Below, in pieces: positions 13,786 through 56,792 of a stretch of 62,954 nt of DNA. The stretch's first letter is position 1. Every line of letters begins with the position of its first letter. The notes under the pieces are model-generated. The model was not told where the DNA came from. It searched no databases and was given only the letters and a program-made list of their open reading frames with translations. This stretch comes from a virus (lineage: Duplodnaviria > Caudoviricetes), in IMG/VR virus record IMGVR_UViG_3300035703_000093, positions 1 to 62,954 of that record; one strand, 5' to 3'. The position numbers and the translations under genes are program-made.

Positions 13786-13822
13786 GCTTTTTTAAGGGTT
13801 CTCGGTTCGCTGTTCTCGGTTC

Positions 13823-15091: not shown

Positions 15092-15136
15092 GAATGAGGA
15101 ATGAGGAATGAGGAATGAGGAATGAGGAATGACGAA
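15092..15136. repeat. Heptamer tandem array GAATGAG/GAATGAC
   Basis: About 6 units. Related GAATG(A/C)(G/C) runs at about 7754, 11095, 13424, 16844, 17500, 49560 and 52147, mostly intergenic. Confidence 0.9.
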
Positions 15137-15391: not shown

Positions 15392-15679
15392 TTATTGGCA
15401 CATGGGGAGATCGGCGAAGGGGATGCCGAGTTCGTGGCAGTGGGTGGTGGCGTGCGGGTGGGAGGCGGGGCGGCGGTGGTGATGGAGGCCGTGGTTGGAG
15501 GACATCAAGCTGCGTGGCAGGGCGTTGAGGCCGGTTTCCGGCATGAGGGAGCCGTCGTCGTCACGCGGGGCGAGATCGGCGGGGACGCAGGGGGCGATGT
15601 CGTGGAGGAAGCAGCCGGAGAGGAGCCGGTGGCAGAGGTGGCAGTTGCCGTCCTGGTCGGTGTCATTGGGGCAGTTCAT
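15392..15679 (-). CDS. Cys/His-rich hypothetical protein
   Basis: CPNDTDQDGNCHLC; ATGA overlap with the replication gene. Confidence 0.55.
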   Translation of the reverse strand: MNCPNDTDQDGNCHLCHRLLSGCFLHDIAPCVPADLAPRDDDGSLMPETGLNALPRSLMSSNHGLHHHRRPASHPHATTHCHELGIPFADLPMCQ

Positions 15680-16833
15680 GCGGCGGCGGGGTTTGTTGCG
15701 ACGGTGGCGAGGTGGGAGGGGATTTTACCGCCCTGGGCGGCGAGGAGGCCGAGGAAGGCGTTTTCGTTGGCGGCGGGGGTCGGCGGGGTCGTGTTTGCGC
15801 GGGTGGACAGGCTGGCAGCTTGTTTCACGACGGGAGGGCCGAGGCGGGGCTTTTTGCAAAGTTTCCAAGTGGTGGTCGCTCGTTTGATGATGCCGTCGAG
15901 GCCGTCGATGAAGACGCCTTTTTTTGCGGTGAGCCGCTCGGGGTTGTTTTGATTTTGGTTGGCGGGCGAGTCGATCCACTGCGCGAACCAGCGTAAGAGT
16001 TGCCATTGCTGGTCGGTCACGGCTTCGAGCGAGGCTAGATGCTGAAGAACTTTGCTTTCGTCCTCGTATCCCCAGAGTTTTAGCTGGTTCCATTCGTCGC
16101 AGACGGCGTCAATCCTGGCCTTTTGGCGGTTGATGCGTGACAGGGTAGAGTTGGGGTCTGAGGCGGAAAGCCGGATGCGGACGGGGGCGTCCGCGCTCCG
16201 TTCAGAGTCAGAGTCAGAGTCAGAGTCAGAGATAGATGAAGAACAAGATAAAGAGGGCGTTACGTTATTCTCCTCGTGATGTTGCGTGACGGGGGGCGTG
16301 ACGCGTGACGTTACGGCGTCACGGGGGGTGTTGACCGTGTTGGCGGCGTTGACGGAGGGTGACGGTGCTTCCTGGAATTGTTCCTCAGCGGCTTTGCGCC
16401 GGTCGCGCAGGCGCTGCTGACGCCTCGCGGCGGCGGTCTTGCTGCGCTCGCCGTTTTTGTCGGGCGCGTTGTGTTCCACAAACCGGGGGAGGGTGACGGT
16501 GTGGGCTTCGGCGTCGTGGATGGCGTAGCCGACGGAGGCCATGGCGGCCCCGAAGCCGGGGATGTGGGCGAGGTCGTCGAGGTAGGAGAGATCGGCGTGA
16601 CGGAAGACGCCGTCGGTGGTGTGGTCGTTGGCGGCGAACCAGACGCGTGACAGGCCCATCACCGTCACGTCACGCAGGGCGTTACGCGTGACGGTGTCCG
16701 TCACGCTTCCAAACAAGTCCTTGGACTGGTAGGTGAGGATGTAGCCGGGGGCGGATTTGGCGATGTGGGCGGCCATGCGGTGGACGCGGGGGTCGCTTTC
16801 AAGGTCGGCGCGGATTTTGATCCAGGAGGGCAT
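15676..16833 (-). CDS. Phage replication initiator-like protein
   Basis: N-terminal WIKIRADL..DPRV..MA...GLSRVW; LPRFVEHN; A.RQQR.R; (SD)n linker encoded by (TCAGAG)5 at 16202-16231. Confidence 0.75.
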   Translation of the reverse strand: MPSWIKIRADLESDPRVHRMAAHIAKSAPGYILTYQSKDLFGSVTDTVTRNALRDVTVMGLSRVWFAANDHTTDGVFRHADLSYLDDLAHIPGFGAAMASVGYAIHDAEAHTVTLPRFVEHNAPDKNGERSKTAAARRQQRLRDRRKAAEEQFQEAPSPSVNAANTVNTPRDAVTSRVTPPVTQHHEENNVTPSLSCSSSISDSDSDSDSERSADAPVRIRLSASDPNSTLSRINRQKARIDAVCDEWNQLKLWGYEDESKVLQHLASLEAVTDQQWQLLRWFAQWIDSPANQNQNNPERLTAKKGVFIDGLDGIIKRATTTWKLCKKPRLGPPVVKQAASLSTRANTTPPTPAANENAFLGLLAAQGGKIPSHLATVATNPAAA

Positions 16834-19892: not shown

Positions 19893-20014
19893 GTTCTCGG
19901 TTCTCGGTTCTCGGTTCTCGGTTCTCTGTTCTCTGTTCTCGGTTCTCGGTTCTCTGTTCTCGGTTCTCTGTTCTCTGTTCTCGGTTCTCTGTTCGCGGTT
20001 CTCTGTTCGCGGTT
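19893..20014. repeat. Heptamer tandem array, about 17 units of GTTC(T/G)C(G/T)
   Basis: GTTCTCG/GTTCTCT/GTTCGCG units read directly. Shorter copies at about 13798, 25611, 26990, 30296, 36584, 37661, 39731, 42535, 42751 and 43581. Confidence 0.95.
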
Positions 20015-20016
20015 GG

Positions 20017-20784
20017 TCAGGCGGTGAGTTGCAGGATGTTGGTGGCGGTGGAGGTTTGGGCGGGAAGGTTGAGGCGGCGGCGGAGCCATTCGACGCCTTT
20101 GGGGGTGATGCGGGTTTGCGTGAAGGCGTGCTCGTGGGCCTCGCCGGTGCGGACGGTGAAGTAGCCGTCGCGCAGGTGCTCGGCGTAGGGCTGGAGGTGG
20201 CCGCCTTCGCGGAAGCAGAGGCGCTGCTTCTCAAGGCGGGTGGTGAACTGCTTCGGGGGCAGGCCGAGCAGCTTGGCCGTCTCCCGCAGGCCGAAGGTGC
20301 CCTCGGTCTGGACGTAGGACTCGACGAACTCGACGGCGGGGCGCTGGGCCTCGACCTGGAGTTTGAGGGCCTCGGCCTGCTCGCAGGAGTCGGCCAGCAG
20401 GCGGAGGGCCTCGGAGAAGGTCTTTGGCAGGTCGAAGGGCGGCGGGGGAGGGGCTGGGACGACGGTGTAGGTGCCGGTGCGGCGGAGGGTGGGGAGGACT
20501 TCACTGGTCACCCATTTGCGGAAGGTCTGGGCTTCGGGCTTGCGGGACTTGAAGACGAGAGTGTAGAGGCCGGACTCGGTTATGGTGACCACGGTTCTCT
20601 TGCCGTCGGCTGTCTCAGTAATACTTAGACCGCGCTCATCTTCGGCTAGACCTTTCGCGGCTTCGGTTGGGTTGGTAAGGCCTAAAGCGTTACATATATC
20701 GTGCATAACGAACTTGACCTGCCCGTCCTCGATGACGGTGCGGACGTTTTGCGTGCCGAAGGTGAAGGTTTGGAGGGTGGTCAT
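20017..20784 (-). CDS. Antirepressor, BRO-N + ANT/KilAC domains
   Basis: ITESGLYTLVFKSRKPEA..FRKWVTSEVLP.LRRTG.Y; LPKTFSEALRLLAD; TRITPKGVEWL. Confidence 0.92.
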   Translation of the reverse strand: MTTLQTFTFGTQNVRTVIEDGQVKFVMHDICNALGLTNPTEAAKGLAEDERGLSITETADGKRTVVTITESGLYTLVFKSRKPEAQTFRKWVTSEVLPTLRRTGTYTVVPAPPPPPFDLPKTFSEALRLLADSCEQAEALKLQVEAQRPAVEFVESYVQTEGTFGLRETAKLLGLPPKQFTTRLEKQRLCFREGGHLQPYAEHLRDGYFTVRTGEAHEHAFTQTRITPKGVEWLRRRLNLPAQTSTATNILQLTA

Positions 20785-20819
20785 GGTGCGGGTGGGGCTG
20801 GACAGGCTGGCAGCCTGTT

Positions 20820-21377
20820 TCACGCGGGGAGGTAGTGGGTGTCCCAAGGGTTGCCGTCGGCCTCGATGTTCCGCACGAGGCCGCGGTCGGTGAGGGCGTA
20901 GAGGTAATCTTGGACCTCATCGGCGGTGCGGTTGCAGTGCATGGAAACATCGTCCGGGGAGAAGCCGCCGGTGGGCTGCGGGGCGGCGTTTTTGACAAGG
21001 TGGCGCAGGGCGGCGAGAATTGATTCTTCGGCGGGCAAGAGGGCACCGTCCTTCATTTCTGCGCGGGCAGCGGTCATAGCTGCGCGGGCAGCGGTCATAG
21101 CTGCGCGGACGTAAGCGACGTAGGCGGTGAGGGCAGCTTTGGTTTCTGGGAGGTTGGGTTCAGTGAGGTTTGATTCTTCAATGGCGGTGAGACAGTTTTC
21201 CAATGCCTGTGGGTCAGCTTCCTCCAGGACGATAGGCAGCCATGCGGCGACACTGGCCAGCACATGACCAGATCTGTTATTTTTAACGAGGTAAACCGCA
21301 TGCGGCGTGCTTTGCAGGGTGTGTTCAAGGAAGGACGCGTGGTGATAATCTTCGAGGGTGGGAAGTGGGTCTTGCAT
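20820..21377 (-). CDS. Hypothetical protein with C-terminal winged helix
   Basis: EVQDYLYALTDRGLV; internal 21-bp tandem duplication at 21060-21108 (AAMTAAR x2). Confidence 0.6.
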   Translation of the reverse strand: MQDPLPTLEDYHHASFLEHTLQSTPHAVYLVKNNRSGHVLASVAAWLPIVLEEADPQALENCLTAIEESNLTEPNLPETKAALTAYVAYVRAAMTAARAAMTAARAEMKDGALLPAEESILAALRHLVKNAAPQPTGGFSPDDVSMHCNRTADEVQDYLYALTDRGLVRNIEADGNPWDTHYLPA

Positions 21378-21420
21378 GGCGGGTGTGGATTGAGGACAGG
21401 CTGGCAGCCTGTTTCACGGG

Positions 21421-21630
21421 TCAGGCGGGTTCGAGGGTGATGCCGGCGTGGGTGAGCTTGCGGCTGATGAGCTTGGCGAGCAGGCCGGCGGGGGTGGTGC
21501 GCTGGAGGTGGGCGTTGGCCTCCAGGTCGGCTCGGAGATCGGCGGGGAGGTTGCGGGTGTTGAGCTTGAGGAGGACGATGCCGTCGTCCTGGTCAGGCGG
21601 GGAGGCGGCGGGAGCGGGGTGTTTTTCCAT
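21421..21630 (-). CDS. Small RHH-like protein, first gene of the leftward operon
   Basis: LNTRNLPADLRADLEANA...TTPAGLLAKLI. Confidence 0.55.
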   Translation of the reverse strand: MEKHPAPAASPPDQDDGIVLLKLNTRNLPADLRADLEANAHLQRTTPAGLLAKLISRKLTHAGITLEPA

Positions 21631-21669
21631 GTTGCGGGTGGGTGGTTGCGGGTTCAGGGTGGGGGCGCT

Positions 21670-22017
21670 ATGAAAGACGGGATCGAGAAAATCGTCGGGG
21701 CAGTGGTTGCCATTCTGGGCGTCGCGCTTGGAGTGTTTGTGACCTTTGTGGTGTATTTACAGGCGGCCAGCGTGATGGCTGGATTTGCCGCGGCTTGCGG
21801 CATCATTTTGCTGCTGACGGTGGCGTTCTGGCCCTTGTATTTGCTGCTGGGAGTCCTGCTGAAATGTTGGGACAACCGGGAGCCTGTTGTCGAAATGCTG
21901 AGGCATTGGGCCTGGGTGGTGCAGCGGGCGCTTTTGTGGGCGCTGGGATTGTTTTTCGCCGTTCTCGTGACGTATGCCATTCTCATGGCTGTCTTTGGCT
22001 GGATTGATGGGCGGTGA
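21670..22017 (+). CDS. Membrane protein with about 3 TM helices
   Basis: Strongly hydrophobic ORF upstream of the repressor. Confidence 0.6.
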   Translation: MKDGIEKIVGAVVAILGVALGVFVTFVVYLQAASVMAGFAAACGIILLLTVAFWPLYLLLGVLLKCWDNREPVVEMLRHWAWVVQRALLWALGLFFAVLVTYAILMAVFGWIDGR

Positions 22018-22120
22018 TTTGCTGGTATGTGCATATCGTGCTGCTCTGTGTTTTTCGCACAGGCGGCTCGGGTTGGCAACTTTTATTTGCATATTCTGCG
22101 ATTTTGTGCATTTTGCACCC

Positions 22121-22738
22121 ATGACAATCGACGCAACTTCATTGAAGAGCTGGCGCGAAAGCCGAAAGCTTTCCCAGCTCGATCTTGGTGGAATGCTTGG
22201 CGTTTCACACTCGGCGGTGAACCGCTGGGAGAACGGGCAGGAGATCCCCGGACCGGTGCAGATGCTCCTGCGTCTGCTCATCCACGGCGAGATGCCGTTT
22301 GGCGGCGGGCAGGAGGACACGGTGAAGGAGGAGGCGAAGCACTTCTGGTCGCTCAAGCTGACGCTGGGGGACTGGCACAAGCTGGAAGGGTTGGCGTCCT
22401 CGGCGGGCTTTCCCACGGTGCGGGACTACCTGCTGCATCTTATCCGTGAGCATTTGGAGGAGGAAACCTCCAAAACTTTGTTTATCAGCAATAATCAAGA
22501 TGCCGATACCGTTGGAAATGAGTGCTGCCCGCCCTCGTCAAGTGTCTCGACTGCAACTTCCTGCGAAACCGGCCCCACAGCGCGATCACCCCTGGCCTCG
22601 GCTGCGCCCATTGTCCCGCTACCGACAGCGCACTGGTCCGGGACCGGCGGCGGCGCACCCGCCGCAGGCGCGGGCGGCGAAATGGCGCGGCAGGATGTGG
22701 TGTATGAGAAGCCGAGGAGGCGGCGGAAAGCGGAGTGA
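22121..22738 (+). CDS. XRE-family HTH repressor (CI-like)
   Basis: LKSWRESRKLSQLDLGGMLGVSHSAVNRWENG. Divergent from the early operon. No peptidase domain seen. Confidence 0.82.
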   Translation: MTIDATSLKSWRESRKLSQLDLGGMLGVSHSAVNRWENGQEIPGPVQMLLRLLIHGEMPFGGGQEDTVKEEAKHFWSLKLTLGDWHKLEGLASSAGFPTVRDYLLHLIREHLEEETSKTLFISNNQDADTVGNECCPPSSSVSTATSCETGPTARSPLASAAPIVPLPTAHWSGTGGGAPAAGAGGEMARQDVVYEKPRRRRKAE

Positions 22739-23013
22739 AACCTTACGCCAGACAATGCGGCGGATCTCCGCCTGAACTATCCACGCAGTCCCATGCAGGC
22801 CGTCACAGTTTGGGAATGCAAGGGCGATCACCGAACGGACGCTTCATCGCCGACAAAACTCAATACTGCGAGTCCAGGCCTGGGGCGAAAGAGAAAATAC
22901 GCAACGCCAAACGCGCCTTGAAAAAACGTGCCAGACAACAACTCAAGCGCGAAATGCTGAGTGAGAACAATCAAACTGTGCCGACCGCTGGGGCGCTCGG
23001 TGCATCCGACTAA
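22735..23013 (+). CDS. Small basic protein (distal cassette-like gene, stop codon inside attC1)
   Basis: GTGA overlap with the repressor; NAKRALKKRARQQLK. Confidence 0.6.
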   Translation: MKPYARQCGGSPPELSTQSHAGRHSLGMQGRSPNGRFIADKTQYCESRPGAKEKIRNAKRALKKRARQQLKREMLSENNQTVPTAGALGASD

Positions 23014-23062
23014 ACCCAAAAGCCCAACCGCCCCAGCGGTTGGCACCAGTGCCGGGTTTAGC
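22962..23062 (-). other. attC site 1 (101 bp)
   Basis: Minus strand: GCTAAAC-CCGGC-ACTGGTGC-...stem...-GCACAGT-TTGATT-GTTCTCA, i.e. R'', 5 nt, 8-nt L'', 7-nt L', 6 nt, R'. Confidence 0.85.
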
Positions 23063-23073
23063 CCCGAATCACT

Positions 23074-23391
23074 ATGGACCCACTAATCACAAAAATCGAA
23101 GACCTCACAGAGTTTGCCGGACTGGAGCCAGAAACGATCACGCTGCTAAAGATGGCCGCCGAAGCTCAAAGGACGGGGAAAATGCCGCCGCTACCGATCA
23201 CGACTGCACCGGAACCAACAGTGGGATGGGTAAAATCACCGCGCCGAAACGATTTGGCTGAACGACCAAGCTCACGGCACTGCCGGGGGCGGAAACCAAC
23301 CTCAAACACACTGACTCTATGGCTAAGAAAAAAGCATCCAAAACACCCAGCGCCCCGGCAGTTGACCGTGCAGTGCCTGGTTCGCGCTTGA
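23074..23391 (+). CDS. Cassette E hypothetical protein (reads through attC2)
   Basis: ATG 12 nt after attC1; the C-terminal part is encoded by attC2. Confidence 0.5.
   Translation: MDPLITKIEDLTEFAGLEPETITLLKMAAEAQRTGKMPPLPITTAPEPTVGWVKSPRRNDLAERPSSRHCRGRKPTSNTLTLWLRKKHPKHPAPRQLTVQCLVRA
23257..23386 (-). other. attC site 2 (130 bp)
   Basis: Minus strand: CGCGAAC-CAGGC-ACTGCACG-...CTGCCGGGG/CCCCGGCAG...-CGTGAGC-TTGGTC-GTTCAGC. Confidence 0.88.
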
Positions 23392-23567
23392 TGCGAGTGT
23401 CTGACTTTGAGAACGCTTGCTCCGCTGATCTGAACTGCGACCTGTGGGATGGCTCGCTAAATGCACAGTATGGAGGTAAGATCACGCTGGCTGTGTCGGA
23501 GATGCGATACATCGCAAACGCCTTGCGCTTCATGCAGGGTAGAAGGCAACGCACATGCCTAGACTGA
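23319..23567 (+). CDS. Cassette D hypothetical protein (start inside attC2)
   Basis: MAKKKASK...; AVDRAVPGSR is encoded by the attC arm. Confidence 0.6.
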   Translation: MAKKKASKTPSAPAVDRAVPGSRLMRVSDFENACSADLNCDLWDGSLNAQYGGKITLAVSEMRYIANALRFMQGRRQRTCLD

Positions 23568-23568
23568 G

Positions 23569-23662
23569 CGCGAACGCGGAGGTAAACCAGCCATGAGCGC
23601 CTTTGATATTGACCCTGTGACAGCCCTGCCGCGAATGGCTTGGCTTCACCGTTTTGTTCAGG
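23569..23662 (-). other. attC site 3 (94 bp)
   Basis: Minus strand: CCTGAAC-AAAAC-GGTGAAGC-...AGCCAT/ATGGCT...-GTTTACC-TCCGC-GTTCGCG. Confidence 0.8.
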
Positions 23663-23895
23663 CTTTTCGGGCGTGGAGGCGTGGACGGCTGGAGAGACGA
23701 GCAGTTGCCATCGGAGCCAGATTGGAGCGCATCGAAATAGCTCGCGAGGTGATGAAGATATTTGGAGAAGATGCACTCAAGATCGGCTCGGGCTTTATTG
23801 TCGAGATCATCATGGATAGAATGGAGGCCGAGCGTTCCGAACATGGCCGCCTCAGTAACGAACTCGCACAGATCGAGAAAAGCCTGAACCGATAA
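23593..23895 (+). CDS. Cassette C hypothetical helical protein (start in attC3, stop in attC4)
   Basis: 100-aa ORF filling the cassette. Confidence 0.65.
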   Translation: MSAFDIDPVTALPRMAWLHRFVQAFRAWRRGRLERRAVAIGARLERIEIAREVMKIFGEDALKIGSGFIVEIIMDRMEAERSEHGRLSNELAQIEKSLNR

Positions 23896-24020
23896 AACGC
23901 AGCAACCCCATAGGGCATAAACACGATGGACTCTCCACTACCAACACCCGCCGCCGAAGCGGCAGACTCTCAACCTCCGACAGACGGCCCTATGGGGGTG
24001 GCTGCCGTGCCGTGTTCTGC
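23883..24020 (-). other. attC site 4 (138 bp)
   Basis: Minus strand: GCAGAAC-ACGGC-ACGGCAGC-...CCCCATAGGGC/GCCCTATGGGG...-GCTGCGT-TTTATCG-GTTCAGG. Confidence 0.85.
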
Positions 24021-24207
24021 GTTGGACGCGCTCGACTACGCAATTTACACCTGCAACAATAGGGCGGGAAGCCTGCGTCACGTTGCTTACAACGCAGCGT
24101 GTCACGACATCATTTGTTTTCTTGAGGCGGCAAAGGGTCGCCTCTTGGATGGCGGAGAATTATACGATTATGCGGTTACGCAGAACGACAAGGCTGAGGC
24201 ACCGTAG
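23926..24207 (+). CDS. Cassette B hypothetical protein (start in attC4, stop in attC5)
   Basis: 93-aa ORF filling the cassette. Confidence 0.62.
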   Translation: MDSPLPTPAAEAADSQPPTDGPMGVAAVPCSALDALDYAIYTCNNRAGSLRHVAYNAACHDIICFLEAAKGRLLDGGELYDYAVTQNDKAEAP

Positions 24208-24231
24208 GTTGCCTCCAGCCGCTAGTTCTCA
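24180..24231 (-). other. attC site 5 (52 bp)
   Basis: Minus strand: TGAGAAC-TAGCG-GCTGGAGG-CAACCTACGGTG-CCTCAGC-CTTGTC-GTTCTGC. Confidence 0.85.
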
Positions 24232-24273
24232 TTCCGTGGTCTATGTCGCCGAAAAATAATTTCACTTTGGCCG

Positions 24274-24302
24274 TTGAAAACCTAGCTAGGTTGTGGTTTA
24301 AT
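24274..24302 (+). promoter_or_regulatory. Sigma70-type promoter with palindromic operator
   Basis: TTGAAA-17 nt-TTTAAT with extended -10 TG. Perfect palindrome AACCTAGCTAGGTT (24279-24292) in the spacer. Confidence 0.7.
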
Positions 24303-24367
24303 GGTCGTGTTCTCAATCGAGGACACCGCGCCGGGCGGTTCCCGGCCACTGCTCAAAGCACACTGAC

Positions 24368-25087
24368 ATGAAACACACCATCGAAATCCGCAACGGCTCC
24401 GGCTGGAACAACTATGCTGGCCTCAAAGACCTCAAATCCCTGCCCGCAGGCACCAAGGGGTTGATGAAGAAAAACGGCGTCGCTGAAATCCACATCGGCC
24501 CCGCCGATGATGAAAAACCATTCGGAGTCGCCGCTCGCTATTACGACGCAGACGGCGAAATGATCTGGGAGCAATCGTTTGGCGAAGACAGTTCAGCAAG
24601 CTGGATCAGGAGCCGAGTGACCGCGCTGCTTGAAGAAACAATCAGCGTCCGCCGTGAAAAAGTCCGCGCTGAACGTGCGGCGGAGGCACTCAAGAAAGCC
24701 AACGCAGCAGGCTTCGCGACCGCAAAAGAACACAGCGATCATCTCGCTGCGATGGCGGCCGAGTCGAAAGCAAAAGCAGCAGCAGAACGTGATGCCCGTT
24801 GGGCATGGCTCAAGGGCGAAAATGGCGGACAAGAAGCCGCCGCTGCGGCTCTTGAGAAAATGCGTGAACTGCGCAAAGCCTGCCCGCAAGCCGACGGCAT
24901 GACTCGCGGCGGCAAGCTCGGTAAGCTCATCAATCCTGCCTCCCCATCGGGAGGGTGGGCCGAAGTGTTCGAGGCTTTCGTGATCGACAACGAAACCCGC
25001 AGCAATGGAATGCTCGCATGGCTGCTGCAAAACGGCCACCGCGCCGGTCTCGATGACCGTCATTTCTTCTTCGTCGCAGCCGCATGA
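24368..25087 (+). CDS. Cassette A hypothetical protein
   Basis: 239-aa ORF with A/C-rich codon usage distinct from the phage backbone. Confidence 0.75.
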   Translation: MKHTIEIRNGSGWNNYAGLKDLKSLPAGTKGLMKKNGVAEIHIGPADDEKPFGVAARYYDADGEMIWEQSFGEDSSASWIRSRVTALLEETISVRREKVRAERAAEALKKANAAGFATAKEHSDHLAAMAAESKAKAAAERDARWAWLKGENGGQEAAAAALEKMRELRKACPQADGMTRGGKLGKLINPASPSGGWAEVFEAFVIDNETRSNGMLAWLLQNGHRAGLDDRHFFFVAAA

Positions 25088-25263
25088 AACGTGAATCTCT
25101 CGAACTCCAAGAATCAGACTGGCAGCGGCTCACGGAAGTGGCCGCTGCCACGTCGTCAATTTACTCCGACCGGCCATCATGGCGCAGGCTCATCCTGCGC
25201 ATCGCTCGCGGCGAAGTCCGCTGCTCGGAAGCGCCGAAGGCCAAGAAGCGCCCGAAGGAATGA
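25084..25263 (+). CDS. Cassette A small RHH-like protein (59 aa; not in ORF track)
   Basis: ATGA overlap; MKRESLELQESDWQRLTEVAAATSSIYSDRPSWRRLILRIARGEVRC...; its stop TGA is the first 3 nt of the att box. Confidence 0.65.
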   Translation: MKRESLELQESDWQRLTEVAAATSSIYSDRPSWRRLILRIARGEVRCSEAPKAKKRPKE

Positions 25264-25290
25264 GAACACTGATTCTCAAACAAAAGTCGC
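25261..25290 (-). other. Putative attI
   Basis: Minus strand TTGAGAA-TCAGT-GTTCTCA, with no attC hairpin, 36 nt from the intI start. Its R box is complementary to R'' of attC5. Confidence 0.7.
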
Positions 25291-25302
25291 CGATTAACCC
25301 CG

Positions 25303-25599
25303 ATGAAAACGCGCTCTCCATCCGCTCGTGCTACATTGCAAAAATGCGTCGATCTCCTTCGCAGGAAGCATTACGCGCTCACCACGGAACAGAGTTACTG
25401 TCAGCACATTGGTTCGTATATTGACTGGCTGCGTGATGTGCAGGAACTGCTGGGCCACGCCATCCTGAACACGACGATGATCTACGTCCATGGCGACGGC
25501 GAACGGGTGAGGAGTCCGCTGTCTGCGATGCCGCTGCCTGCCAACGTGGTGCCGTTTGAGTCGCAACAGTCGCAACAAAACCTGGGGAGGGTTGCGTGA
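25303..25599 (+). pseudogene. intI: Internally deleted integron integrase (98-aa open frame)
   Basis: IntI N-terminal motif LRRKHYALTTEQSY joined in frame to the C-terminal RDVQELLGH...TTMIY.H....VRSPL. The central catalytic domain is missing. Confidence 0.88.
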
Positions 25600-25645
25600 T
25601 GGAAACGCCAGTTCTCAGTTCTCAGTTTCCTGCTAACGAATCATC

Positions 25646-26071
25646 ATGAAAGCCCGAGCCGCCATTTGGAAAACACTGGTCGATGAATGCCTGGACAAGG
25701 GGATGTCCCTGCGGGCGACGGCGGCGTTTCTGGCGCTGCCGGTGGGGACGGTGAAGACCTGGAGGCATCGGCAGAGGAAGCAGGCGGACAAGAGTGTCCG
25801 CGTTTCCATGAAACCAGCGATGAAACCGGCTCCTGCGAAGGAGAGGGCCACGGCCATGAAACCAGGCATGAAACCGGGGGTGCATCGCGGGCTGACGGTG
25901 GAGATGATGCCGGGGCGGACGGGGTGGGAGCGGCGGATGACGTGGAGCCTGTTTAGGCGCGGGGAGTGGCCGCCGAAGGAGTGGCGCATTCCGGCGGATT
26001 TGGAAGGCCCGGCGCTGGCGTCGGCGCTGGGGGAGAGGGCGTTCAAGAGCAAACCGAGGGGGGAGGCGTGA
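25646..26071 (+). CDS. HTH protein with MKP repeats
   Basis: GMSLRATAAFLALPVGTVKTWRHR; ATGAAACC repeated 4 times. Confidence 0.6.
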   Translation: MKARAAIWKTLVDECLDKGMSLRATAAFLALPVGTVKTWRHRQRKQADKSVRVSMKPAMKPAPAKERATAMKPGMKPGVHRGLTVEMMPGRTGWERRMTWSLFRRGEWPPKEWRIPADLEGPALASALGERAFKSKPRGEA

Positions 26072-26496
26072 GTTTGGAGTTTCAAGTTTCAAGTTTCACG
26101 TTGGAAGCCGGGCCGGAGAGGCCGGTGGTGCCGGGGTGTGTGGAGATGGCGAAGTTGCCGAAGACGCGGCAGGTGGTGCGGCGGCCGATGACGGCGGACG
26201 AGGCGGAGATGGTGAAGGCCATCCGGCGCTGCGTGACGTTTTCGGTGGGGCACTGGGACAAGAAATTCATGCGGCAACTGCCGGAGGAGATCACGGAAAA
26301 GCAGGCGGTGCAGGTGTGGCGCATTTTCAGAACCTACCGGCGGCAGATCGTGACGAAGGTGCCGGAGGCGGTGATGACGTGGGAGCGGAAGGAGGAGCTG
26401 CTGCGGGCGGCGGAGGTGGTGGTGGAGGCATTTCAAGCAGAGGGACTGGACACCGCGAGAGGTGGGATAACCGCAGAGAAGAAGGAGCCTTTATGA
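26068..26496 (+). CDS. Hypothetical protein
   Basis: GTGA overlap (alternative ATG at 26146); DKKFMRQL...ITEKQ...YRRQI. Confidence 0.6.
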   Translation: MSLEFQVSSFTLEAGPERPVVPGCVEMAKLPKTRQVVRRPMTADEAEMVKAIRRCVTFSVGHWDKKFMRQLPEEITEKQAVQVWRIFRTYRRQIVTKVPEAVMTWERKEELLRAAEVVVEAFQAEGLDTARGGITAEKKEPL

Positions 26497-26798
26497 GCAC
26501 GAATGTGGCCTTGAAATACCTTCGTGACAAAGAGTGGGCGATGGGCAATGGACAGTGTCATGACTGCTGCGGAAAACAGCCGCGAAAGGGTTGGTGGACT
26601 GACACCGTTGGGCACCGCCGCGGATGTGCTCTTGCCCTCGCGATTGAATCTTTGGGTGCTACCGTGGTGTGGGAGCGAGAAAACCGCTCTAAGGCGCGGC
26701 TGGAGCATGAAAGGTGGGGTAAGCAGATGTTCCGAGAAATCATGAAAGGTGTGATGGAAGAACTGAAAACTAAAAATGGAGGAACTGAGAATGGCTGA
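26493..26798 (+). CDS. Hypothetical Zn-binding protein
   Basis: CHDC...GHRRGC; ATGA overlap. Confidence 0.6.
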   Translation: MSTNVALKYLRDKEWAMGNGQCHDCCGKQPRKGWWTDTVGHRRGCALALAIESLGATVVWERENRSKARLEHERWGKQMFREIMKGVMEELKTKNGGTENG

Positions 26799-26831
26799 GA
26801 CGGACCAGACACCGGGAGGGACGGGATTGAC

Positions 26832-27383
26832 ATGAGTAACCGGATTGACGGGGAATCCCCTGCCCTGCGGCTGTGGCTGCCGGGGTATCATACGCCGTCG
26901 TTGAACCGGACGGCGGGAAAGCACTGGGCGAAGGTGCGGCGGCTGCGGCTGGAAACGGCGGAGGCGCTGTATGAGGCGCTGCGGGGCGGGTTCTCGGTTC
27001 TCGGTTCGCGGTTCGCGGTTGAGGAGGCGCGGAGGGTGTTGTCGAAGATGCTGCTCAAGGTGCCGCTGGAGACGCGGCGGGGCAAGAAGCCGGACAAGCC
27101 CCTGGTGCCGGCGTATCTGCGCATTGAGCGGGTGGCGTGCGTGCTCCTCGATGAGGAAAACTTCAAGGGCGGCACGAAGGGCCTGACGGATCTGCTGCGC
27201 TACGCGTTTCCCACGGTGCTGCTGGACGACGGGCCGGGGTATGTGGTGATGGAGCACGTCCAGACCAAGTGCTCGAAGCGGTGCGAGGAGGGGACGTGGG
27301 TGGAGCTGAGGCTGGGGAAGGCGGAGAACGAAGGGCGGAGGGCGGAGGGGATGTCGGCGGCGGTCATGGGCGGTGGAGGATGA
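26832..27383 (+). CDS. RusA-like Holliday junction resolvase/endonuclease
   Basis: PSLNR; LDEENFKGGTKGLTDLL; LLDDGP. In-frame heptamer insert at about 26990-27020. Confidence 0.65.
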   Translation: MSNRIDGESPALRLWLPGYHTPSLNRTAGKHWAKVRRLRLETAEALYEALRGGFSVLGSRFAVEEARRVLSKMLLKVPLETRRGKKPDKPLVPAYLRIERVACVLLDEENFKGGTKGLTDLLRYAFPTVLLDDGPGYVVMEHVQTKCSKRCEEGTWVELRLGKAENEGRRAEGMSAAVMGGGG

Positions 27384-29148: not shown

Positions 29149-32100
29149 TCACAGGCTGGCAGCCTGTCTCACGAGGAGAGGGGCGCGTTGTTTGATGCGC
29201 TGGAACTCCTGAAGGGCGTTTTCGAAGGCGGCGCGGGCCTCGCCGGTGAGGGAGGCGCGGAACATGGATTGAGCGTCTTGAGCTGAAATGCCTTTGCGCT
29301 TGATTCCACCGACTACCATCAAAGGATTGCGGTAGAAGAGGAGCTTGTTGATGTCCTGCTCGGTGCGGACGGGGTGGCCCATTTTTTCGAGTGATCCAAG
29401 GATGTTTTTGATCGCTTTAAGGTTTGGTTCGTCCTGCGCGAGCTGGGCAAAGAGGGCCTTGCGGGCGCGGGAGGCGGGCGTTGTTGAGCCGTAGTCCATG
29501 CCTTCCTGCACTTCTCCTCCTTGGGCGATGATCCAATCGTGGGCTTTGCGGTAGAGGTCCGGGGTGGCGTTCTTGACGTTGAGGCCGACGACGGCGCGGG
29601 TGAAGGCCTGGGCGGGGTCGTAGGTTTCGAGGGTCTTGTTCGTGGCGCGGTCGCCGGCACGCATGAGGGTGTTGAAGGCGGTGCCACCGGGGGCGAGGGG
29701 TGGCAGGGCGACGCCGGCGGCGTGCTTGGTGTAGGCTTTGATCTTCTCGAGCGGCGTCATGCCGAACTCGGCGATGGGGCGGCGGGTGAAGGCGTCCTCG
29801 TTGTGCCTCCAGGCATCGACCAGGGAGAGCACGGGGCCGCCGGAGACGATGCCGCGCCAGAAGCGGTTCCACGGGTCCTCGGTGGCATCGGTGACGGCGA
29901 CGCGGGTGCCGAGGAGATCGGCGAAGGGCATGATGGCGGAGATGTCGAACTGCTGGACGGCCCCTTGGGCGCTGCGGAAGGGCAGCAGCATGGAGAACAG
30001 CGGGGTGTCAAAGGCGAAGAGCTTCCCCTTCCCTGCCATGTCTTTCTGGATTTCCTCCATGTCGTCGTCATCGAGGCCGAGCAGCATGGCGGAGATCGCG
30101 GTCACGATGGCCGGGAAGCTGAGGGCTGCGGTGAGGGCGAGCGGGCGCTCGGCGACGGCGGTGCCGAGGATGCGGGTGGACTCGCGGAAGAAGGAGAAGA
30201 ACGGGTTCACGAAGCGGCCGACGGCGCGGGTGGTGCCGGACTGGCCGAGGCGGTCGTAGTAGGGGAACCATTTCCGCACATGTTCCGCTGCGCGGGTTCT
30301 CTGTTCGCTGTTCTCGGTTCCCTGTTCAGCGAGTTCGGCCTTAGCTTTGAAGTAGGCGGCGGCTTTGAAGAGGTCGTCGGGGAGGCGGCGGAGGCTGGCG
30401 AGGAACTCGTGGGAGCCGTGGAGGGTGGCACCAAAGCCGAAGAGCATGCGCTGGACGAGGCCGGGGTCGTAGTCCTCGATGGTCTTGGGGTCGGGCAGGA
30501 GGCCTTTCAGGCGCTCCTTCACGAGGCCGGTGTAGGCGTCGCCACCGATGACCTGCTGTTCGATGAGTTCGGCGAAGTCTTTGCCCCCGGTGCGGAGGGC
30601 GGCGATGGCCTGCTGGTAGTAGGGCCAGTTGCCGGGGTTCCAGAGGCTGTTGCCGGCGAGGGTGGCGAACATGGTGTTGCCGACGGCGTCGCGGATGTGG
30701 GAGCCGGGGTTCCAGACGAGTTTCCCAGCCTTCCACTTGCGCAGGATGGCGTCGTAGAACTGGAGCGCGGCGTTTGGCACATCGACGAGGTCGAGGATCT
30801 GCGCGGCGATGTCCTTGCGGACGTGCTTGCCGGCGAGAGGGCCGAAGCGGGAGGCGTCGGGAATGGCGGTGAAGCCGTTGAGGGCGATGTCGCTCACCCA
30901 TTCGGGGTGCTGGGCGGTTTTGCGCAGCAGCTCCATGGTGGCGGCGTTGTGGGTCTGGCCGAGGACGTAGCGGGCAACGGCATAGACGGGGTCCTTCACG
31001 AGTTTGGCGGGCTCGAAGGGGTCCTTCGGCAGGAAGCGGTCGTATTGGTGCTTCTTGGCCTGCTTCACGATGCCGGCGAGCATGGGGGAGAGCTTCGCGG
31101 TGTTGGCGATCTGGTCCACGGTGAGGGACTTGATCTGGTCGCGCATCGAGGCGCGTTCGGAGCGCGAGAGCGGGGCGAGCATGTCGGCCACGGTCTTGTC
31201 GCCACGGTCCTGGAGCATGTTCAGCGTCTGCTGGCGCACGAAGTCGTGGTAGAAGGCGTCGCGGGAGGCGGCGTCGCGGAAGCGCCAGCGGTTGCGTTTG
31301 CCGCCCTCGTCGCGGGAGACAGTCACATACTGGCCGGTCTTGTCCTTCCGGGTGGTATCGACGATGTGGTAGGCGGTGGAGCGCTGCTGGAGGAGATCGC
31401 GCACGCCGAGCTTGAACGCGGCGAGGAAGGAGCCGGCGGACTCGCGGGCCTCGTCCTCGGTGTAACGGGGCATCCAGCCGTTCGACTGGAGTTCCTCGAA
31501 GGTGTCCGGGTTCATGAGGCCCTGGCGCACGAGTTCGGAGCCGGTCTGGCGGAGGAGATCGCGCAGGCGCTCCCCGAGGCGCTGCATTTCCGGCGGCAGT
31601 GTGGCCATGGGGACGCGGCCCTCCATGGCATCGAAGAGCTGGGCGCGGGCGGCGGGGTTCTCGGCGAACTCCTTCGGGTAGGCGAGATCGGAGAGGCGGG
31701 GATTGCCGGAGAGGGCGCGGATGAGGTCGTTCGCCGTCTCCTGGCCGTGGGCGGATTTGCGCTGCATCTCGTGGTGCAGGGCGAGCCATTCACGGGGCAG
31801 GAGGGCGGTGGGGAGGACTTGATCGACGAGGCCTTTGATGGACGGGGCGAGGCCGTCCGGCTTGTCGAGCCAGGTTTCGACGGCAGCTTTGGCGCTGCGG
31901 AGCTTGGGGCCGGCGAGCTTGTCGAGCTGGGCGGCGAGGCGTTTGTCGAGGTTGTTCGAGCCGAAGGTGGCGAGGGGTTGCTGGATGCCGAGGGCGTCGG
32001 CAAGGTAGCCGTTCACGCGCAAGGGCACGAGAGGTGCCTGGACGAGGCCTTTGATGACCTTTGAGGCCAGTGCGCCCGTGAGATCGACGGCTTTGCCGGC

Positions 32101-35100
32101 GAGGTCGAGGGACTGGGCGGCACCGGGGACGGTGAGGAGTTTGCGGTCGAGGGCGACGGCTGTTTCGGCGATTTCGCGAGCGTTGGGAGTGGCGGCTCCG
32201 ATGGCGGTGCCGATTGTGCCGCCGATGGCTGCACCGGGGGCTCCTGCGACCAAAGCGCCTGCGCCTGCGCCGATGCCGCCCCCGATGAGGGCACCGCTGG
32301 TGGTGTTTTTGAGGCGGTTGGAGGCGTAGAGAACGCCTGTCAGTCCGTCGGGCAGGCCTTCTCGGCTTCCAATCTGAGAAAGTAAACCCTCAGATTCGCC
32401 TCTTTGAAATGTTTCAAGCGCGGATGCCGTGACGATTGCTCTTTGAAGCGTTGCCAGTCCAATTCCAGATGTGTCGGGATGGGCGTCAAGGACCGCACGC
32501 TCGATTTGCTGCTGCCCCACGGGCTGTCCGGTGCTGTCGATGAACTCGTCACGAGTGAAATCGTAGCGCCAGTTCCGGGCTTCCGCAACCGCCTTGAAAG
32601 CGTTGTCCATCTCCTTGGTCAAAAGCGCGGCGGTGTTGATGGCGGCATTTTTCCCCCACGGCACCTTCTGGCGGTCGTGAGGTTTGAGGTGCTTGGTGGT
32701 GCCGTGGCGCAACGCACTGCTGGCAAAATTCGACGTGCGGCGGATGGCGTTGATGCTGGTAAGCCCGCCCGGATCGTCTTTGATGCGTTTGCCGTTGTTG
32801 TGAATCCAATCCAGCGCTGCCTGGTAAATTTGCGCTCCTCCCCCGCCTTTTTTGCCTTTGGATTCGGCCGCAGTGCTGCGGATGTAGGGGCGGTCAGTGT
32901 CGGCATCATGGATGTCCAAGTAGCCGTTTTTGCCGTGAAAACGCACGGTGTCACCCTGACTCGCGGCCGTGACGAGCTTGCCTGGAATCGACACCGCCTC
33001 AGCGATTTTGCTGGCGCTGGCGTTGCTGGTGCGTCCGTATTGGAATGCCTCATCATGGGCCGCCAGAGCACGCCAGACCTTGGCGACAAACGTGCGGGCC
33101 GGAGCGCGGGCTTCTTCGTCACGCTGATCCAGAATGTCCTGCCACCAAGACGCCGTGCCCATCGGCTGGGCGGGCGTGTTGGGTGGGAACCACTGCGGCA
33201 GCCAGCGGCGGTTGAGTGCGTCCATGTCCTCCTGCTGCTGGCTGGCCTCTTGCTGGAGAAATTCCAGCGCCAGTCGGGATGACTGCTTTTCCATGCGCTC
33301 CTGAACCACCTCGGAAGAATAGATGTCAACATCCGCCCCCAATTTGATCAGCTTGAGGCGTTTTTCCAAGTGTTCACCCCAGCCATTGATCTCGTTGGGT
33401 GTTACGAAAGACAGTAGCTCTAGCGCCCTGTTGAGATACTTTTGGAACTGCTCATCAAGCAGTGTTTGCGGGTAGATGTTTGAGGCGGCTCCTTGGTCAA
33501 TGAGGGCGGCACGGGCGGCTTTTCTTGAATCTAAAACTTCAGCGGCTTTGTTAGCCGTTGGGTGGATGCCATATGAAAGAAGCGACTCATTCGCCAGCCG
33601 CTTCAACTGGTTGTTTTTGTCGATCTTGCTGCGGATTTCCTGAAGTGCTGGCGTTCCGTTGAGGAACCATTGTTGATCCTGCGGTAAATCGTCATGCGTG
33701 CCGCCGTTCCTCTGGAGTTTTTCCAAAAATGTCCGCATGGCAGGCAGCGCCTCCTGCTGGAGCTTGGCACGGCGCTGTTTTTCAGCATCTTGTTCAGCTT
33801 GGAGACTGGCTTGTTTCGCCTGAGCGTCGGACAATGCCGACTCGTTTTTCTTGATGCGCGTCTCGATCTGCCAGCGGGCCGCTTGGCCGGTGTCTCCCAC
33901 GGTTTCACCGCCGCCGTCATACCTGGACCCCAGCACGGGCACGGTGCGGTTTTCGGTGGCAGAACCGATCTGGAAACCCACGATCTCCACCTTGTCACCT
34001 GCGGCTTTTCGCAGATCCTTGATCATGTCCGCCATGTAGCCGGAGCGCGTGTCCGGGCCGTCGCTGAAGTCGATGCCTGGCAGGTTTTCCACCGCCAAAC
34101 CCGTCGCCACATGGCCGGGCTGCTGCGGCTGGGCCAGGAACCGCAGGAGTCCAAGTTCCTCATAGTCGTCATTTTGCGGCGGGCGTGGTGGCAGAGCGCG
34201 GGCGCGGCGACTCCAGAAGTTCAGCAGAGCGGTGCGGGGGTTGGTGTAATTGCTGCTGGTTTGCCGCTCTCCAGCGGAGTTCTCGACCCGAAACTCACCG
34301 CGCTCTGTGCGGCCCATTTTGAAACCTTCGGGTAGATCTGGAAGTTTTTGGTAGGTTACAACAAATTCAGCCGCATTCATCTTGATCCGGTCACCGGCCT
34401 TATTGACCACAATGACCGCATTGATAGGCTCGTTGTGGTTGAGGTAATAGCCGGTGCGACTATGGGGTAGCGAGCGAGTGAGAGCCGCCTTATCGGCAGC
34501 AATGGACTCAATCAGTCCTGACACCTTGCGCTGAACAGAACTGATTTCATCCCGCTGGCTCTGGGATGTGAAGGGGTTTGTCATTGACCACCAATCGGCA
34601 ATTTTGGCAGCCGCGTCAGAATCCAATTGCGGAAGCGCTTCAGTTGGTTTATTATTCCCCGTCGCAGCGACAACATCCTCTGCCAGGGAGGATTCTCCGC
34701 TCCCCTCAATCTGGTTTGGGGAGCGGCCCCGTTGAAGCAATGACATGGGCTGGTTCGCCAACTCACTCTGCGACATCTCCCCGCCCTGGGAAACTGGGGC
34801 GGGGTTTTTTGTGCGTCCGGCGCTGGCAAGCAAAACCGGCTTGTCGTGGGGGCTGGTGGGTTGGGGCAGCGTCTTGGCGAGTTTTTCGATCTGCTCCTTG
34901 GTGACGGGCTGGGTGGTGTCGTGGGTGGTGAGCCAGTGTTTGAAGACGGGGATCGTGGTGGGGATGGCGCTTTGCAGGCCTTTCCAGCCTTTGGTGTAGC
35001 TGGCCATGTAGCCGCGGGCGGCTTCGGCGGGGGTGTTGAAGCCGAGCATGACCTTGTGCTCGTCGAAGTGGCCGTTGCCGGGTTTGCGCTGGTTCACGAT

Positions 35101-52141: not shown

Positions 52142-52283
52142 GGGGGAATGACGAAATCAGAATGAGGAATGACGAATTTCAATGACCCGGTCCGGCCAGC
52201 GCCGTTGGGCGAGCGTCAGCATGCGGTCGAGCGAGGATTGTGGTCTGATGAGGACAACGACTTTCATATGGCGGGCTTGGGCG

Positions 52284-54724: not shown

Positions 54725-54819
54725 GCCGGTCACGGTGGGTGGCAGAATGACGAATTGGCAAGCGGGTTTTGTTGCGATGTTGGGGGAAATGGGGTAGGGT
54801 GGGACGATAAAGGCCGCAG

Positions 54820-56788: not shown

Positions 56789-56792
56789 GGCC

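What the first reader, a model, noticed from the sequence alone, without database searches (positions are those of the whole stretch)
22962..25267. R-box relay records real cassette integration events
Seen: each R' heptamer is complementary to the R'' of the next distal attC rather than to its own site. attI GTTCTCA pairs with attC5 TGAGAAC (7/7), attC5 GTTCTGC with attC4 GCAGAAC (7/7), attC4 GTTCAGG with attC3 CCTGAAC (7/7), attC3 GTTCGCG with attC2 CGCGAAC (7/7) and attC2 GTTCAGC with attC1 GCTAAAC (6/7). Known: this is expected when circular cassettes with self-complementary R boxes integrate by crossover at G^TT. All R' boxes are GTTC-NNN rather than GTTRRRY. Inference: the near-perfect preservation suggests recent or continuing activity.
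Basis: partly seen in the sequence, partly recalled or inferred. Interest (0 to 1): 0.78.

Follow-up and report, generated by a model that had tools for sequence, protein, structure and literature searches.

The report
Decayed integron inside a phage genome

Summary
All heptamers lie where stated. The region holds 13 perfect GTTCNNN/NNNGAAC pairs against 1.4 in shuffles (0 of 2000 reach 13), and a 4-link relay that no shuffle and no other part of the window reaches. It is an integron array: five attC hairpins on the minus strand (22962-24231), an attI crossover at 25266|25267, and an intI remnant (25303-25599) lacking 251 central residues. A covariance model built only from attC sites of other loci finds exactly these five sites, with exact ends. 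Circularising each cassette in silico raises R''/R' pairing from 5,5,5,4,3 to 7,7,7,7,6 of 7. The relay itself is the textbook consequence of crossover at G^TT. The context is less ordinary. The window is a complete 63-kb temperate phage record. Intact relatives of the integrase lie on 47 viral contigs, with arrays of up to 13 cassettes. In these arrays most cassette genes lie on the attC bottom strand and point towards intI (62 of 79). Continuing activity in cis is excluded, because the integrase is dead.

The parts
25303..25599 (+). Remnant of an integron integrase gene (98 codons, still an open frame). It equals residues 1-42 plus 294-338 of the full-length relative P0006. About 251 residues (about 742 bp) are deleted, with the junction near 25430.
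   Evidence: The best NCBIfam hit is TIGR02249 integron integrase, C-terminal positions 279-315, E 3.7e-9, 36.4 bits against a cut-off of 265. The N-terminus matches Pfam Phage_int_SAM_4. BLASTP to P0006. blastn: 25343-25431 matches L003 8041-8129 and 25430-25521 matches L003 8872-8963. The junction is bridged by contigs of runs X2 and X4.
25261..25310 (-). attI region. The R' box GTTCTCA (minus strand) lies at 25261-25267, with the crossover between 25266 and 25267, 36 bases upstream of the intI start codon.
   Evidence: In an alignment of the window with L003 and L002, sequence on the intI side is conserved from the R box onwards, while the cassette side is unrelated. The first R' box lies at the same offset from intI in the window, L003 and L002.
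24186..25266 (-). It contains two overlapping + strand genes, 24368-25087 (239 aa) and 25084-25263 (59 aa).
   Evidence: Own R''/R' pairing is 7/7 plus 4 further bases. The 239-aa protein has 10 homologues at 54-94% identity, 8 of them full length. It has no Pfam, PHROG, NCBIfam or PADLOC match.
24180..24231 (-). attC of cassette 1 (52 nt): R box stem, unpaired spacer of 4 and 5 nt, and an L stem with one extrahelical base on the R''-L'' arm.
   Evidence: Fold z -2.5 and -2.9. Constrained fold events (1,4,5),(6,1,0). Covariance model hit E 9.3e-6 with exact ends.
23889..24185 (-). Cassette 2 (297 bp). The + strand ORF 23926-24207 (93 aa) starts in its own attC and ends 22 nt beyond the cassette junction.
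   Evidence: Own R''/R' pairing is 7/7 plus 2 further bases. ORF list.
23883..24020 (-). attC of cassette 2 (138 nt).
   Evidence: Fold z -1.9 and -2.7, with the R boxes closing the stem. Covariance model hit E 5.5e-3 with exact ends.
23575..23888 (-). Cassette 3 (314 bp). The + strand ORF 23593-23895 (100 aa) has GGAGG 9 nt upstream of its start.
   Evidence: Own R''/R' pairing is 7/7 plus 6 further bases. The ORF has no homologue other than itself.
23569..23662 (-). attC of cassette 3 (94 nt). This is the weakest hairpin of the five.
   Evidence: Unconstrained fold z +0.4 and +0.7. The constrained fold gives an 18-bp stem with spacers of 5 and 5 nt and two 5'-arm bulges. Covariance model hit E 2.3e-5 with exact ends.
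23263..23574 (-). Cassette 4 (312 bp). The + strand ORF 23319-23567 (82 aa) has its stop codon 1 nt before the R box.
   Evidence: Own R''/R' pairing is 7/7 plus 2 further bases. In run X3, three contigs match only 23260/63/69 to 23383/85 and go on unlike beyond 23263 and 23383.
23257..23386 (-). attC of cassette 4 (130 nt).
   Evidence: Fold z -0.9 and -1.8. Covariance model hit E 2.7e-6 with exact ends.
22968..23262 (-). Cassette 5 (295 bp), the most distal and presumably the oldest. The + strand ORF 23074-23391 starts just after its attC and runs on into the next attC.
   Evidence: Own R''/R' pairing is 6/7. ORF list.
22962..23062 (-). attC of cassette 5 (101 nt). Its R' box GTTCTCA (22962-22968) has the same letters as the attI core, as expected for the end of an array.
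   Evidence: Fold z -3.7 and -4.4. Covariance model hit E 2.1e-7 with exact ends. 76% identical to an attC of L003.

Best explanation
This is a small, now disabled integron that sits inside a temperate phage genome.

How it arose: circular cassettes, each carrying a folded attC site, were inserted one after another at attI. An integron integrase cut between G and TT of the R' box (on the window's + strand, between AA and C). Because of that cut, the last six bases of every R' box in the array belong to the next cassette. Each R' box therefore pairs perfectly with the R'' box of the cassette it opens, and only partly with the R'' of the site it closes. This is the 'relay'.

Layout: the array reads on the minus strand, leftwards from attI (crossover 25266|25267). 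The attC polarity towards intI is canonical.

Later event: the integrase gene lost about 742 bp in frame, so the array is now a fossil unless another integrase acts in trans.

What is shown and what is inferred:
- Shown: the sites, their fold, the relay statistics, the integrase remnant and the homology break at attI.
- Inferred from established integron biology: the order of events and the single-strand mechanism.
- Inferred from ORF statistics only: the cassette genes lie on the attC bottom strand, co-directional with intI and the flanking phage genes, and are expressed by read-through from the phage side.
For: 1. Relay statistics: 13 pairs against a shuffle mean of 1.41, with 0 of 2000 shuffles reaching 13. 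The chain has 4 links; shuffles never reach 3. It is the only chain of 3 or more links in the whole window.

2. Covariance model R1 was built from 47 attC sites of ten other loci, none from the window. Run over the window with filters off, it returned the five sites with exact ends, all on the minus strand, as hits 1-4 and 6 of 26 (E 2.1e-7 to 5.5e-3).

3. Constrained folds show R stem, spacer of about 5 nt on each side, and an L stem with single-base bulges on the R''-L'' arm. Class 1 attC sites of aadA2 and gcuF, put through the same script, give the same pattern: (1,5,6),(4,1,0),(10,1,0).

4. In-silico circles: R''/R' pairing is 7,7,7,7,6 of 7 against 5,5,5,4,3 in the array form. The folding energy becomes lower by 4.6, 7.6, 10.5, 7.1 and 0.3 kcal/mol.

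5. The ORF at 25303-25599 matches the integron integrase family best. Full-length relatives P0006, P0012 and P0005 pass the TIGR02249 cut-off (275.7, 277 and 274.9 against 265), while P0002 falls just below (259.3). P0006 is 40% identical to IntI1 over 93-95% of its length.

6. The attI side is conserved from the R box onwards in the window, L003 and L002, and the cassette side is unrelated.

7. Relatives: 17 of 44 viral loci scanned show relays of 5 or more links upstream of intI, counting doubtful long last links and two duplicate pairs. L003 has 13.

8. Of 167 model hits in 47 viral loci, 160 lie on the strand opposite intI.

9. The window is a whole virus record with portal, terminase, major head protein, integrase, anti-repressor and replication genes on both sides of the array.
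Against: - The attC of cassette 3 folds no better than shuffles when unconstrained (z +0.4 and +0.7), and that of cassette 4 is weak (z -0.9 and -1.8).
- R' position 4 is C in 6 of 6 boxes, outside the GTTRRRY consensus.
- The integrase is not functional, and no second one is in the record.
- No recombination product was seen: contigs of four runs show no joint at an attC boundary, though contigs cannot show rare forms.
- Among 80 loci from reference genomes, only 1 had a perfect relay of 5 links. Long perfect relays are thus not general near related intI genes; many of those contigs are short.
- IntegronFinder and HattCI, the field's standard tools, could not be run here.
Confidence: 0.9

Rival explanations
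1. The array and integrase were captured as a block from a bacterial chromosomal integron by imprecise prophage excision, as described for Vibrio anguillarum phages. The relay would then record insertions that happened in a bacterium, not in the phage lineage.
For: Qi et al. 2023 (PMC9892861; section 9 part 1 read) describe such captures. The closest integrases in reference genomes come from Verrucomicrobiota assemblies, at 46-51% identity. ORFs between 22735 and 25599 have lower third-position G+C (0.55-0.69) than most of their neighbours.
Against: A distantly related phage record, G001 (methyltransferase 88% identical, part of the giant protein 50%, major head protein 34%), carries an intact integrase with 13 different cassettes next to a homologue of the window's gene 26832-27383. 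This suggests residence in the lineage with turnover of cassettes. The nearest integrases (72-93% identity over the matched parts) come from viral or metagenome contigs, not from reference genomes. The array is co-directional with the phage genes on both sides.
Confidence: 0.2
2. The array is still being reshuffled, by an integrase supplied in trans from the host chromosome or a co-resident element. The reader's 'continuing activity' would then hold despite the dead gene.
For: All five attC sites keep their structural features. Run X4 has a contig that matches 25264-25296 at one end and is unlike the window over its other 143 letters. This is a weak hint of another first cassette beside the same attI. 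In run X3, attC-only matches end at the predicted junctions 23263 and 23383.
Against: No excision or circle joint was found in contigs of four runs (contigs drop rare forms). The deleted allele with the same junction is present in runs of two studies, with cassette 1 beside it in run X2. No host genome was available to look for an integrase.
Confidence: 0.15
3. The heptamer matches and hairpins are not recombination sites. They would be chance inverted repeats or transcription terminators between small phage genes.
For: 7-bp GTTCNCN-like tandem arrays are common in this genome, which raises the local frequency of GTTC words. Two of the five hairpins are not better than shuffles. The terminator scan lists hairpins inside two of the sites.
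Against: 0 of 2000 shuffles reach the observed values. No other chain exists in the real window. The independent model finds the exact ends. The integrase remnant lies at the expected place. Bulge positions are identical to those of class 1 attC sites. The homology break falls at the crossover.
Confidence: 0.02

Closest known systems
Canonical integrons (class 1 and sedentary chromosomal integrons)
   Same: - intI and the attC top strands lie on opposite strands, with attI at the 5' end of intI.
- The attC architecture matches: R'', a spacer of about 5 nt, and an L box with extrahelical bases on the R''-L'' arm. The class 1 control was put through the same script.
- The crossover is at G^TT, giving the R-box relay. 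In the class 1 control, 2 of 3 cassettes show it at 7/7.
   Different: - The integrase is internally deleted.
- R' is GTTC-NNN.
- The cassettes are very small, 295-314 bp for four of the five.
- Cassette genes lie on the attC bottom strand and point towards attI/intI. In the class 1 control both scored cassettes have their longest ORF on the top strand.
- The whole element sits inside a phage genome.
Integrons and CALINs in phage genomes (Qi et al. 2023, Front Microbiol, PMC9892861)
   Same: Integron parts carried by temperate phages. Those authors found 3 complete integrons, 1 In0 element and 17 CALINs in 10,705 NCBI phage genomes (sections 5 and 9 part 1 read).
   Different: Their complete cases are fragments of Vibrio or Shewanella chromosomal integrons, or class 1 integrons on P1. 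Here the integrase clade is found on 47 IMG/VR contigs. One of them is a 75-kb record with direct terminal repeats, and arrays reach 13 cassettes. The likely hosts are Verrucomicrobiota. Their supplementary tables could not be opened, so overlap with their 17 CALINs cannot be excluded.
Treponema-type 'inverted' integrons
   Same: The integrase gene and the cassette genes point the same way.
   Different: In Treponema, intI is transcribed towards attI and lies on the same strand as the attC sites (passages of PMC3607928 and PMC4889954). Here intI is transcribed away from attI, and 160 of 167 attC hits are on the opposite strand. It is the genes within the cassettes that are turned round.
CALIN (cluster of attC sites lacking an integrase)
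   Same: In function, this is an attC array without a working integrase.
   Different: A recognisable intI remnant and an attI are still attached.

Membership tests
Integron | An integron integrase, that is a tyrosine recombinase with the IntI-specific extra domain; the proxy used here is NCBIfam TIGR02249 at or above its cut-off of 265 bits | tested here: not met
   The window's remnant scores 36.4 bits and covers only model positions 279-315; 251 residues are missing. Full-length relatives P0006, P0012 and P0005 score 275.7, 277 and 274.9; P0002 scores 259.3. The gene was an intI and is now a pseudogene.
Integron | attC sites with inverse cores ending in AAC and starting with GTT, an unpaired central spacer, an L box, and extrahelical bases on the R''-L'' arm | tested here: met
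   Constrained folds of the five sites show the same bulge pattern as aadA2 and gcuF attC. Model R1, built without the window, hits all five with exact ends. Two of the five are thermodynamically weak.
Integron | An attI site next to intI, with cassette insertion at G^TT | tested here: met
   The homology break lies at the R box in the alignment of the window, L003 and L002. The offset from intI is the same in all three. The crossover position itself is inferred, not observed.
Integron | Cassette boundaries such that each cassette's R'' pairs with the R' remainder at its own start | tested here: met
   Own pairing is 7,7,7,7,6 of 7, against 5,5,5,4,3 of 7 in the array form. 0 of 2000 shuffles reach the observed values.
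Integron | R' consensus GTTRRRY | tested here: not met
   Position 4 is C in 6 of 6 R' boxes of the window and in 42 of 74 boxes in ten related loci. The GTT triplet is invariant (74 of 74).
Integron | Cassette genes on the attC top strand, read outwards from a promoter near attI | tested here: not met
   The longest ORF lies on the bottom strand in 62 of 79 cassettes (5 of 5 in the window), binomial p 3.6e-7; the class 1 control gives 2 of 2 on the top strand. The 239-aa bottom-strand gene has conserved homologues. No promoter was identified.
Integron | Integrase-mediated excision and insertion of cassettes | not testable with these tools
   Only contigs of public runs were available, and they showed no attC x attC joints. 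This neither shows nor excludes activity.
Treponema-type inverted integron | intI on the same strand as the attC sites and transcribed towards attI | tested here: not met
   All five window attC sites, and 160 of 167 hits in 47 viral loci, lie on the strand opposite intI. attI lies at the 5' end of intI.

The most novel reading that the evidence does not exclude
Phage-resident integrons of this integrase clade may be a distinct organisational variant. The attC polarity towards attI and intI is canonical, yet the cassette genes are encoded on the attC bottom strand. Each gene then has its own attC upstream, and the longest open frame often starts inside it. The genes point towards intI, in line with the surrounding phage early genes. 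Cassettes would be expressed by read-through from the phage side rather than from a promoter at attI. The phage would use the integron to swap very small early genes (about 60-100 aa), possibly host-takeover or anti-defence functions.
Probability: 0.35. Interest if true: 0.8.

Novelty: new variant of a known kind. Interest (0 to 1): 0.58.

Why it matters
The relay itself only confirms textbook integron mechanics. What matters is where it was found and how the array is arranged.

- A complete temperate phage, probably of Verrucomicrobiota, carries an integron, and intact versions occur on dozens of uncultivated viral contigs. Published surveys of isolated phages found only a handful (PMC9892861). 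If phages keep integrons as their own gene-swapping platform, this gives a direct route for cassette traffic between hosts and a new kind of phage accessory-gene hotspot.
- The reversed gene orientation, if confirmed by transcript data, would show that integron arrays need not be read from a promoter at attI.

Tried and rejected
- **Cassette function:** Pfam, NCBIfam, PHROGs and PADLOC gave nothing for any cassette ORF. The protein atlas gave no usable hit for the 239-aa protein. The 100-aa ORF 23593-23895 has no homologue other than itself.
- **Cassette relatives in held loci:** a search of viral contigs for relatives of the 239-aa protein found none. blastn and tblastn of the window's cassettes against the 47 viral loci found only one attC match and the intI pieces. 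Strand assignment by substitution pattern was therefore not possible.
- **Promoters:** no sigma-70-like promoter was found in 21300-26200.
- **Phage relatedness:** a terminase protein search and a PHROG family search in five related virus records found nothing or one weak hit. Relatedness of G001 was shown instead by tblastn of all window proteins. G002 shares nothing at E 1e-5.
- **Relay scan in reference genomes:** the strict 7/7 scan performed poorly on the 80 reference-genome loci, where chains were mostly 0-3 links.
- **Metagenome scan:** it gave mostly short contigs with little sequence upstream of intI, and was used only for the strand-bias count.
- **Model structure:** the RNAalifold consensus used for model R1 kept only 9 base pairs of the L stem.
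- **Public runs:** all four runs are contigs only. The parts of the stretch without cover in X2-X4, and the two listed joints (21563>25710 and 26031>26996, with sides under 30 letters and the second one in heptamer repeats), are not evidence of anything.
- **Rejected reading:** I considered that the array reads on the + strand towards intI. I rejected it because the bulges lie on the arm that marks the minus strand as top strand, as in the class 1 control.
Full report
**1. The observation**

In 22962-25267 there are 9 GTTCNNN and 17 NNNGAAC words, which form 13 perfect reverse-complement pairs. In 2000 dinucleotide-preserving shuffles the mean was 1.41 pairs, and none reached 13.

The ordered chain runs pair, then a gap of 30-160 nt, then the next pair. 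No shuffle exceeded 2 links. Scanning the whole real window on both strands, the only chain of 3 or more links is this one. The complementarity extends 1-6 bases beyond the heptamers into the cassette.

**2. What the sites are**

- *Folding.* Each interval between an NNNGAAC word and the next GTTCNNN word folds as an imperfect hairpin. Three of the five are clearly better than shuffles: z -4.4 and -3.7 for 22962-23062, -2.7 and -1.9 for 23883-24020, and -2.9 and -2.5 for 24180-24231. Two are not: 23257-23386 gives -0.9 and -1.8, and 23569-23662 gives +0.7 and +0.4.
- *Constrained folds.* When the AAC/GTT pairing is imposed, the sites show an R stem, a spacer of about 5 nt on each side, and a stem with single-base bulges on the 5' arm when written on the minus strand.
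- *Positive control.* I put a class 1 integron (dfrA12-gcuF-aadA2, locus L050) through the same script. Its aadA2 and gcuF attC sites, written on the strand opposite intI1, give (1,5,6),(4,1,0),(10,1,0), which is the same pattern.
- *Literature.* Nivina et al. 2016 (PMC5027507, passages) state that the extrahelical bases lie near L'', on the arm opposite the cleaved AAC of the bottom strand. The window's + strand is therefore the recombinogenic bottom strand, and the array reads on the minus strand.
- *Independent model.* I built a covariance model from 47 attC sites of ten other loci, none from the window. Run over the window with filters off, its hits 1-4 and 6 of 26 are the five sites, with exact ends, all on the minus strand (E 2.1e-7, 2.7e-6, 9.3e-6, 2.3e-5 and 5.5e-3). 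Hit 5 is a lone site at 55900-55953.

**3. The integrase and attI**

- *The remnant.* ORF 25303-25599 matches integron integrase TIGR02249 best, but only its last 37 positions. Its N-terminus matches the SAM-like domain. Against the 341-aa relative P0006 it aligns as residues 1-42 plus 294-338. At DNA level, the stretch corresponding to L003 8130-8871 is absent. No other integron integrase match exists in the record.
- *Relatives.* P0006, P0012 and P0005 pass the curated cut-off, and P0002 is just below it. P0006 is 40% identical to IntI1.
- *attI.* Aligning the window with L003 and L002 around the first R' box shows conserved sequence from the R box towards intI and unrelated sequence on the cassette side. 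The box lies 36 nt upstream of the start codon and at the same offset in all three loci.
- *The deletion is real.* The junction is bridged without mismatch by a contig of run X2 (same study as the likely source) and with 4 mismatches by a contig of run X4 (another study).

**4. The relay explained**

The script cut each cassette at G^TT and closed it on itself. In this circular form, R''/R' pairing rises from 5,5,5,4,3 to 7,7,7,7,6 of 7, and the folding energy drops for all five cassettes. This is the expected result of insertion of circular cassettes at attI. The original work on cassette boundaries by Hall, Stokes and colleagues is recalled here and was not read.

The last R' box (22962-22968) reads GTTCTCA, the same letters as the box now at attI. 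That fits an original attI core left at the end of the array, although cassette 1 happens to have the same letters. In run X3, contigs match only the attC of cassette 4 and go on unlike beyond 23263 and 23383. These are the predicted junction and the end of the site.

**5. Context**

The window is an entire IMG/VR virus record, rated complete. It carries the following genes:
- phage integrase, 5284-6483;
- replication protein, 15676-16833;
- anti-repressor, 20017-20847;
- a 6629-aa ORF, 29149-49038;
- portal, 52535-54838;
- terminase, 56724-58751;
- major head protein, 60563-62068.

The integron lies between these genes, inside a + strand block running from 21974 to 27383.

Full-length relatives of the integrase occur on 47 distinct viral contigs. 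Of 44 loci scanned, 17 show relays of 5 or more links upstream of intI. This count includes two duplicate pairs and some doubtful long last links. L003 has 13 links. Controls were the regions downstream of intI in 80 reference-genome loci, where the maximum was 3 links.

The record behind L003 shares a methyltransferase (88%), part of the giant protein (50%), the major head protein (34%) and the gene next to intI (45%) with the window. The record behind L006 has direct terminal repeats and is rated complete. The closest integrases in reference genomes (46-51% identity) are from Verrucomicrobiota assemblies.

**6. An unexpected feature**

- *Cassette-level test.* With equal 100-nt flanks, the longest ORF lies on the strand of intI (the attC bottom strand) in 62 of 79 cassettes, and on the top strand in 17 (binomial p 3.6e-7). 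In the window it is 5 of 5. The class 1 control gives top strand for both cassettes scored.
- *Start positions.* Of the 62 bottom-strand ORFs, 47 start inside their own attC. This is an upper bound, because the first possible start codon was taken.
- *Homologues.* The 239-aa bottom-strand gene of cassette 1 has 10 homologues at 54-94% identity.
- *attC polarity.* It is nevertheless canonical: 160 of 167 model hits in the viral loci are on the strand opposite intI (47 of the 167 were training sequences, and some loci are duplicates).
- *Cruder measure.* I summed ORF length in the 2.5 kb upstream of intI. The intI strand is favoured in 26 of 30 viral loci, in 13 of 37 reference-genome loci and in 6 of 18 metagenome loci. 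This measure does not check that those ORFs are cassettes.
- *Difference from Treponema.* In Treponema, intI lies on the strand of the attC sites and points to attI.
- *Literature.* One full-text search for inverted or opposite-orientation cassettes found no description of such arrays. Nivina et al. write that cassettes inserted facing the promoter have not been observed, but that statement concerns attC orientation. I have not shown transcription in either direction.

**7. Verdict**

'Continuing activity' is not supported in cis. The GTTC box is a clade habit.

The added value is twofold. First, this is a decayed integron inside a complete phage. Second, it belongs to a set of phage-borne integrons that seem to carry their genes back to front.

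Noticed in passing
window 19893-20014; also 12669-12699, 13797-13828, 15092-15136, 25609-25627, 26078-26102, 26989-27020, 30296-30327, 36582-36625, 37660-37691, 42534-42565, 42751-42781, 43582-43619, 47968-48001, 52146-52177: Many tandem arrays of 7-bp units, mostly GTTCNCN-like (GTTCTCG x17.4 at 19893-20014), are scattered over the phage genome. Several lie inside the giant ORF. The unit resembles the R' box GTTCNNN. No link to the integron was tested, and their role is unexplained.
   Followed up: no
window 55900-55953 (minus strand): A lone attC-like hairpin far from the array was hit by the attC model at E 3.8e-3 (54 nt, R'' CCCGAAC, R' GTTCTCC). It lies between ORF 55514-55912 and the terminase region. 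It could be a stray attC, or a terminator that fits the model by chance.
   Followed up: no
window 29149-49038 (minus strand): A single open frame of 6629 codons, with one domain matching PHROG families annotated as DarB-like antirestriction, endolysin or minor head protein. Its C-terminal 980 residues are 50% identical to a protein of record G001.
   Followed up: partly
window 21059-21108: A perfect 21-bp tandem duplication (2.4 copies) inside ORF 20820-21377 on the minus strand.
   Followed up: no
window 25307-25621: The deleted intI allele, with the same junction, is present in a contig of a groundwater run from a different study (X4, 4 mismatches in 315 nt). The disabled form is therefore not private to this assembly.
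   Followed up: partly
window 24427-25224: The genes of cassette 1 occur at about 98-99% identity in contigs of a freshwater run from another study (X3). The context there could not be seen.
   Followed up: no
L041 342-434 and 895-988; L033/L034 207-299 and 554-612; L015 6065-6158: These are the 7 attC model hits on the same strand as intI, out of 167. They lie far from attI or downstream of intI, and may be inverted sub-arrays or second arrays.
   Followed up: no
window 24232-24315: An A+T-rich 84-nt stretch lies between the attC of cassette 1 and its first gene. It ends in a second GTTCTCA (24309) and, by eye, contains TTGAAA, 17 nt, then TTTAAT on the + strand. The promoter scan did not list it.
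   Followed up: partly
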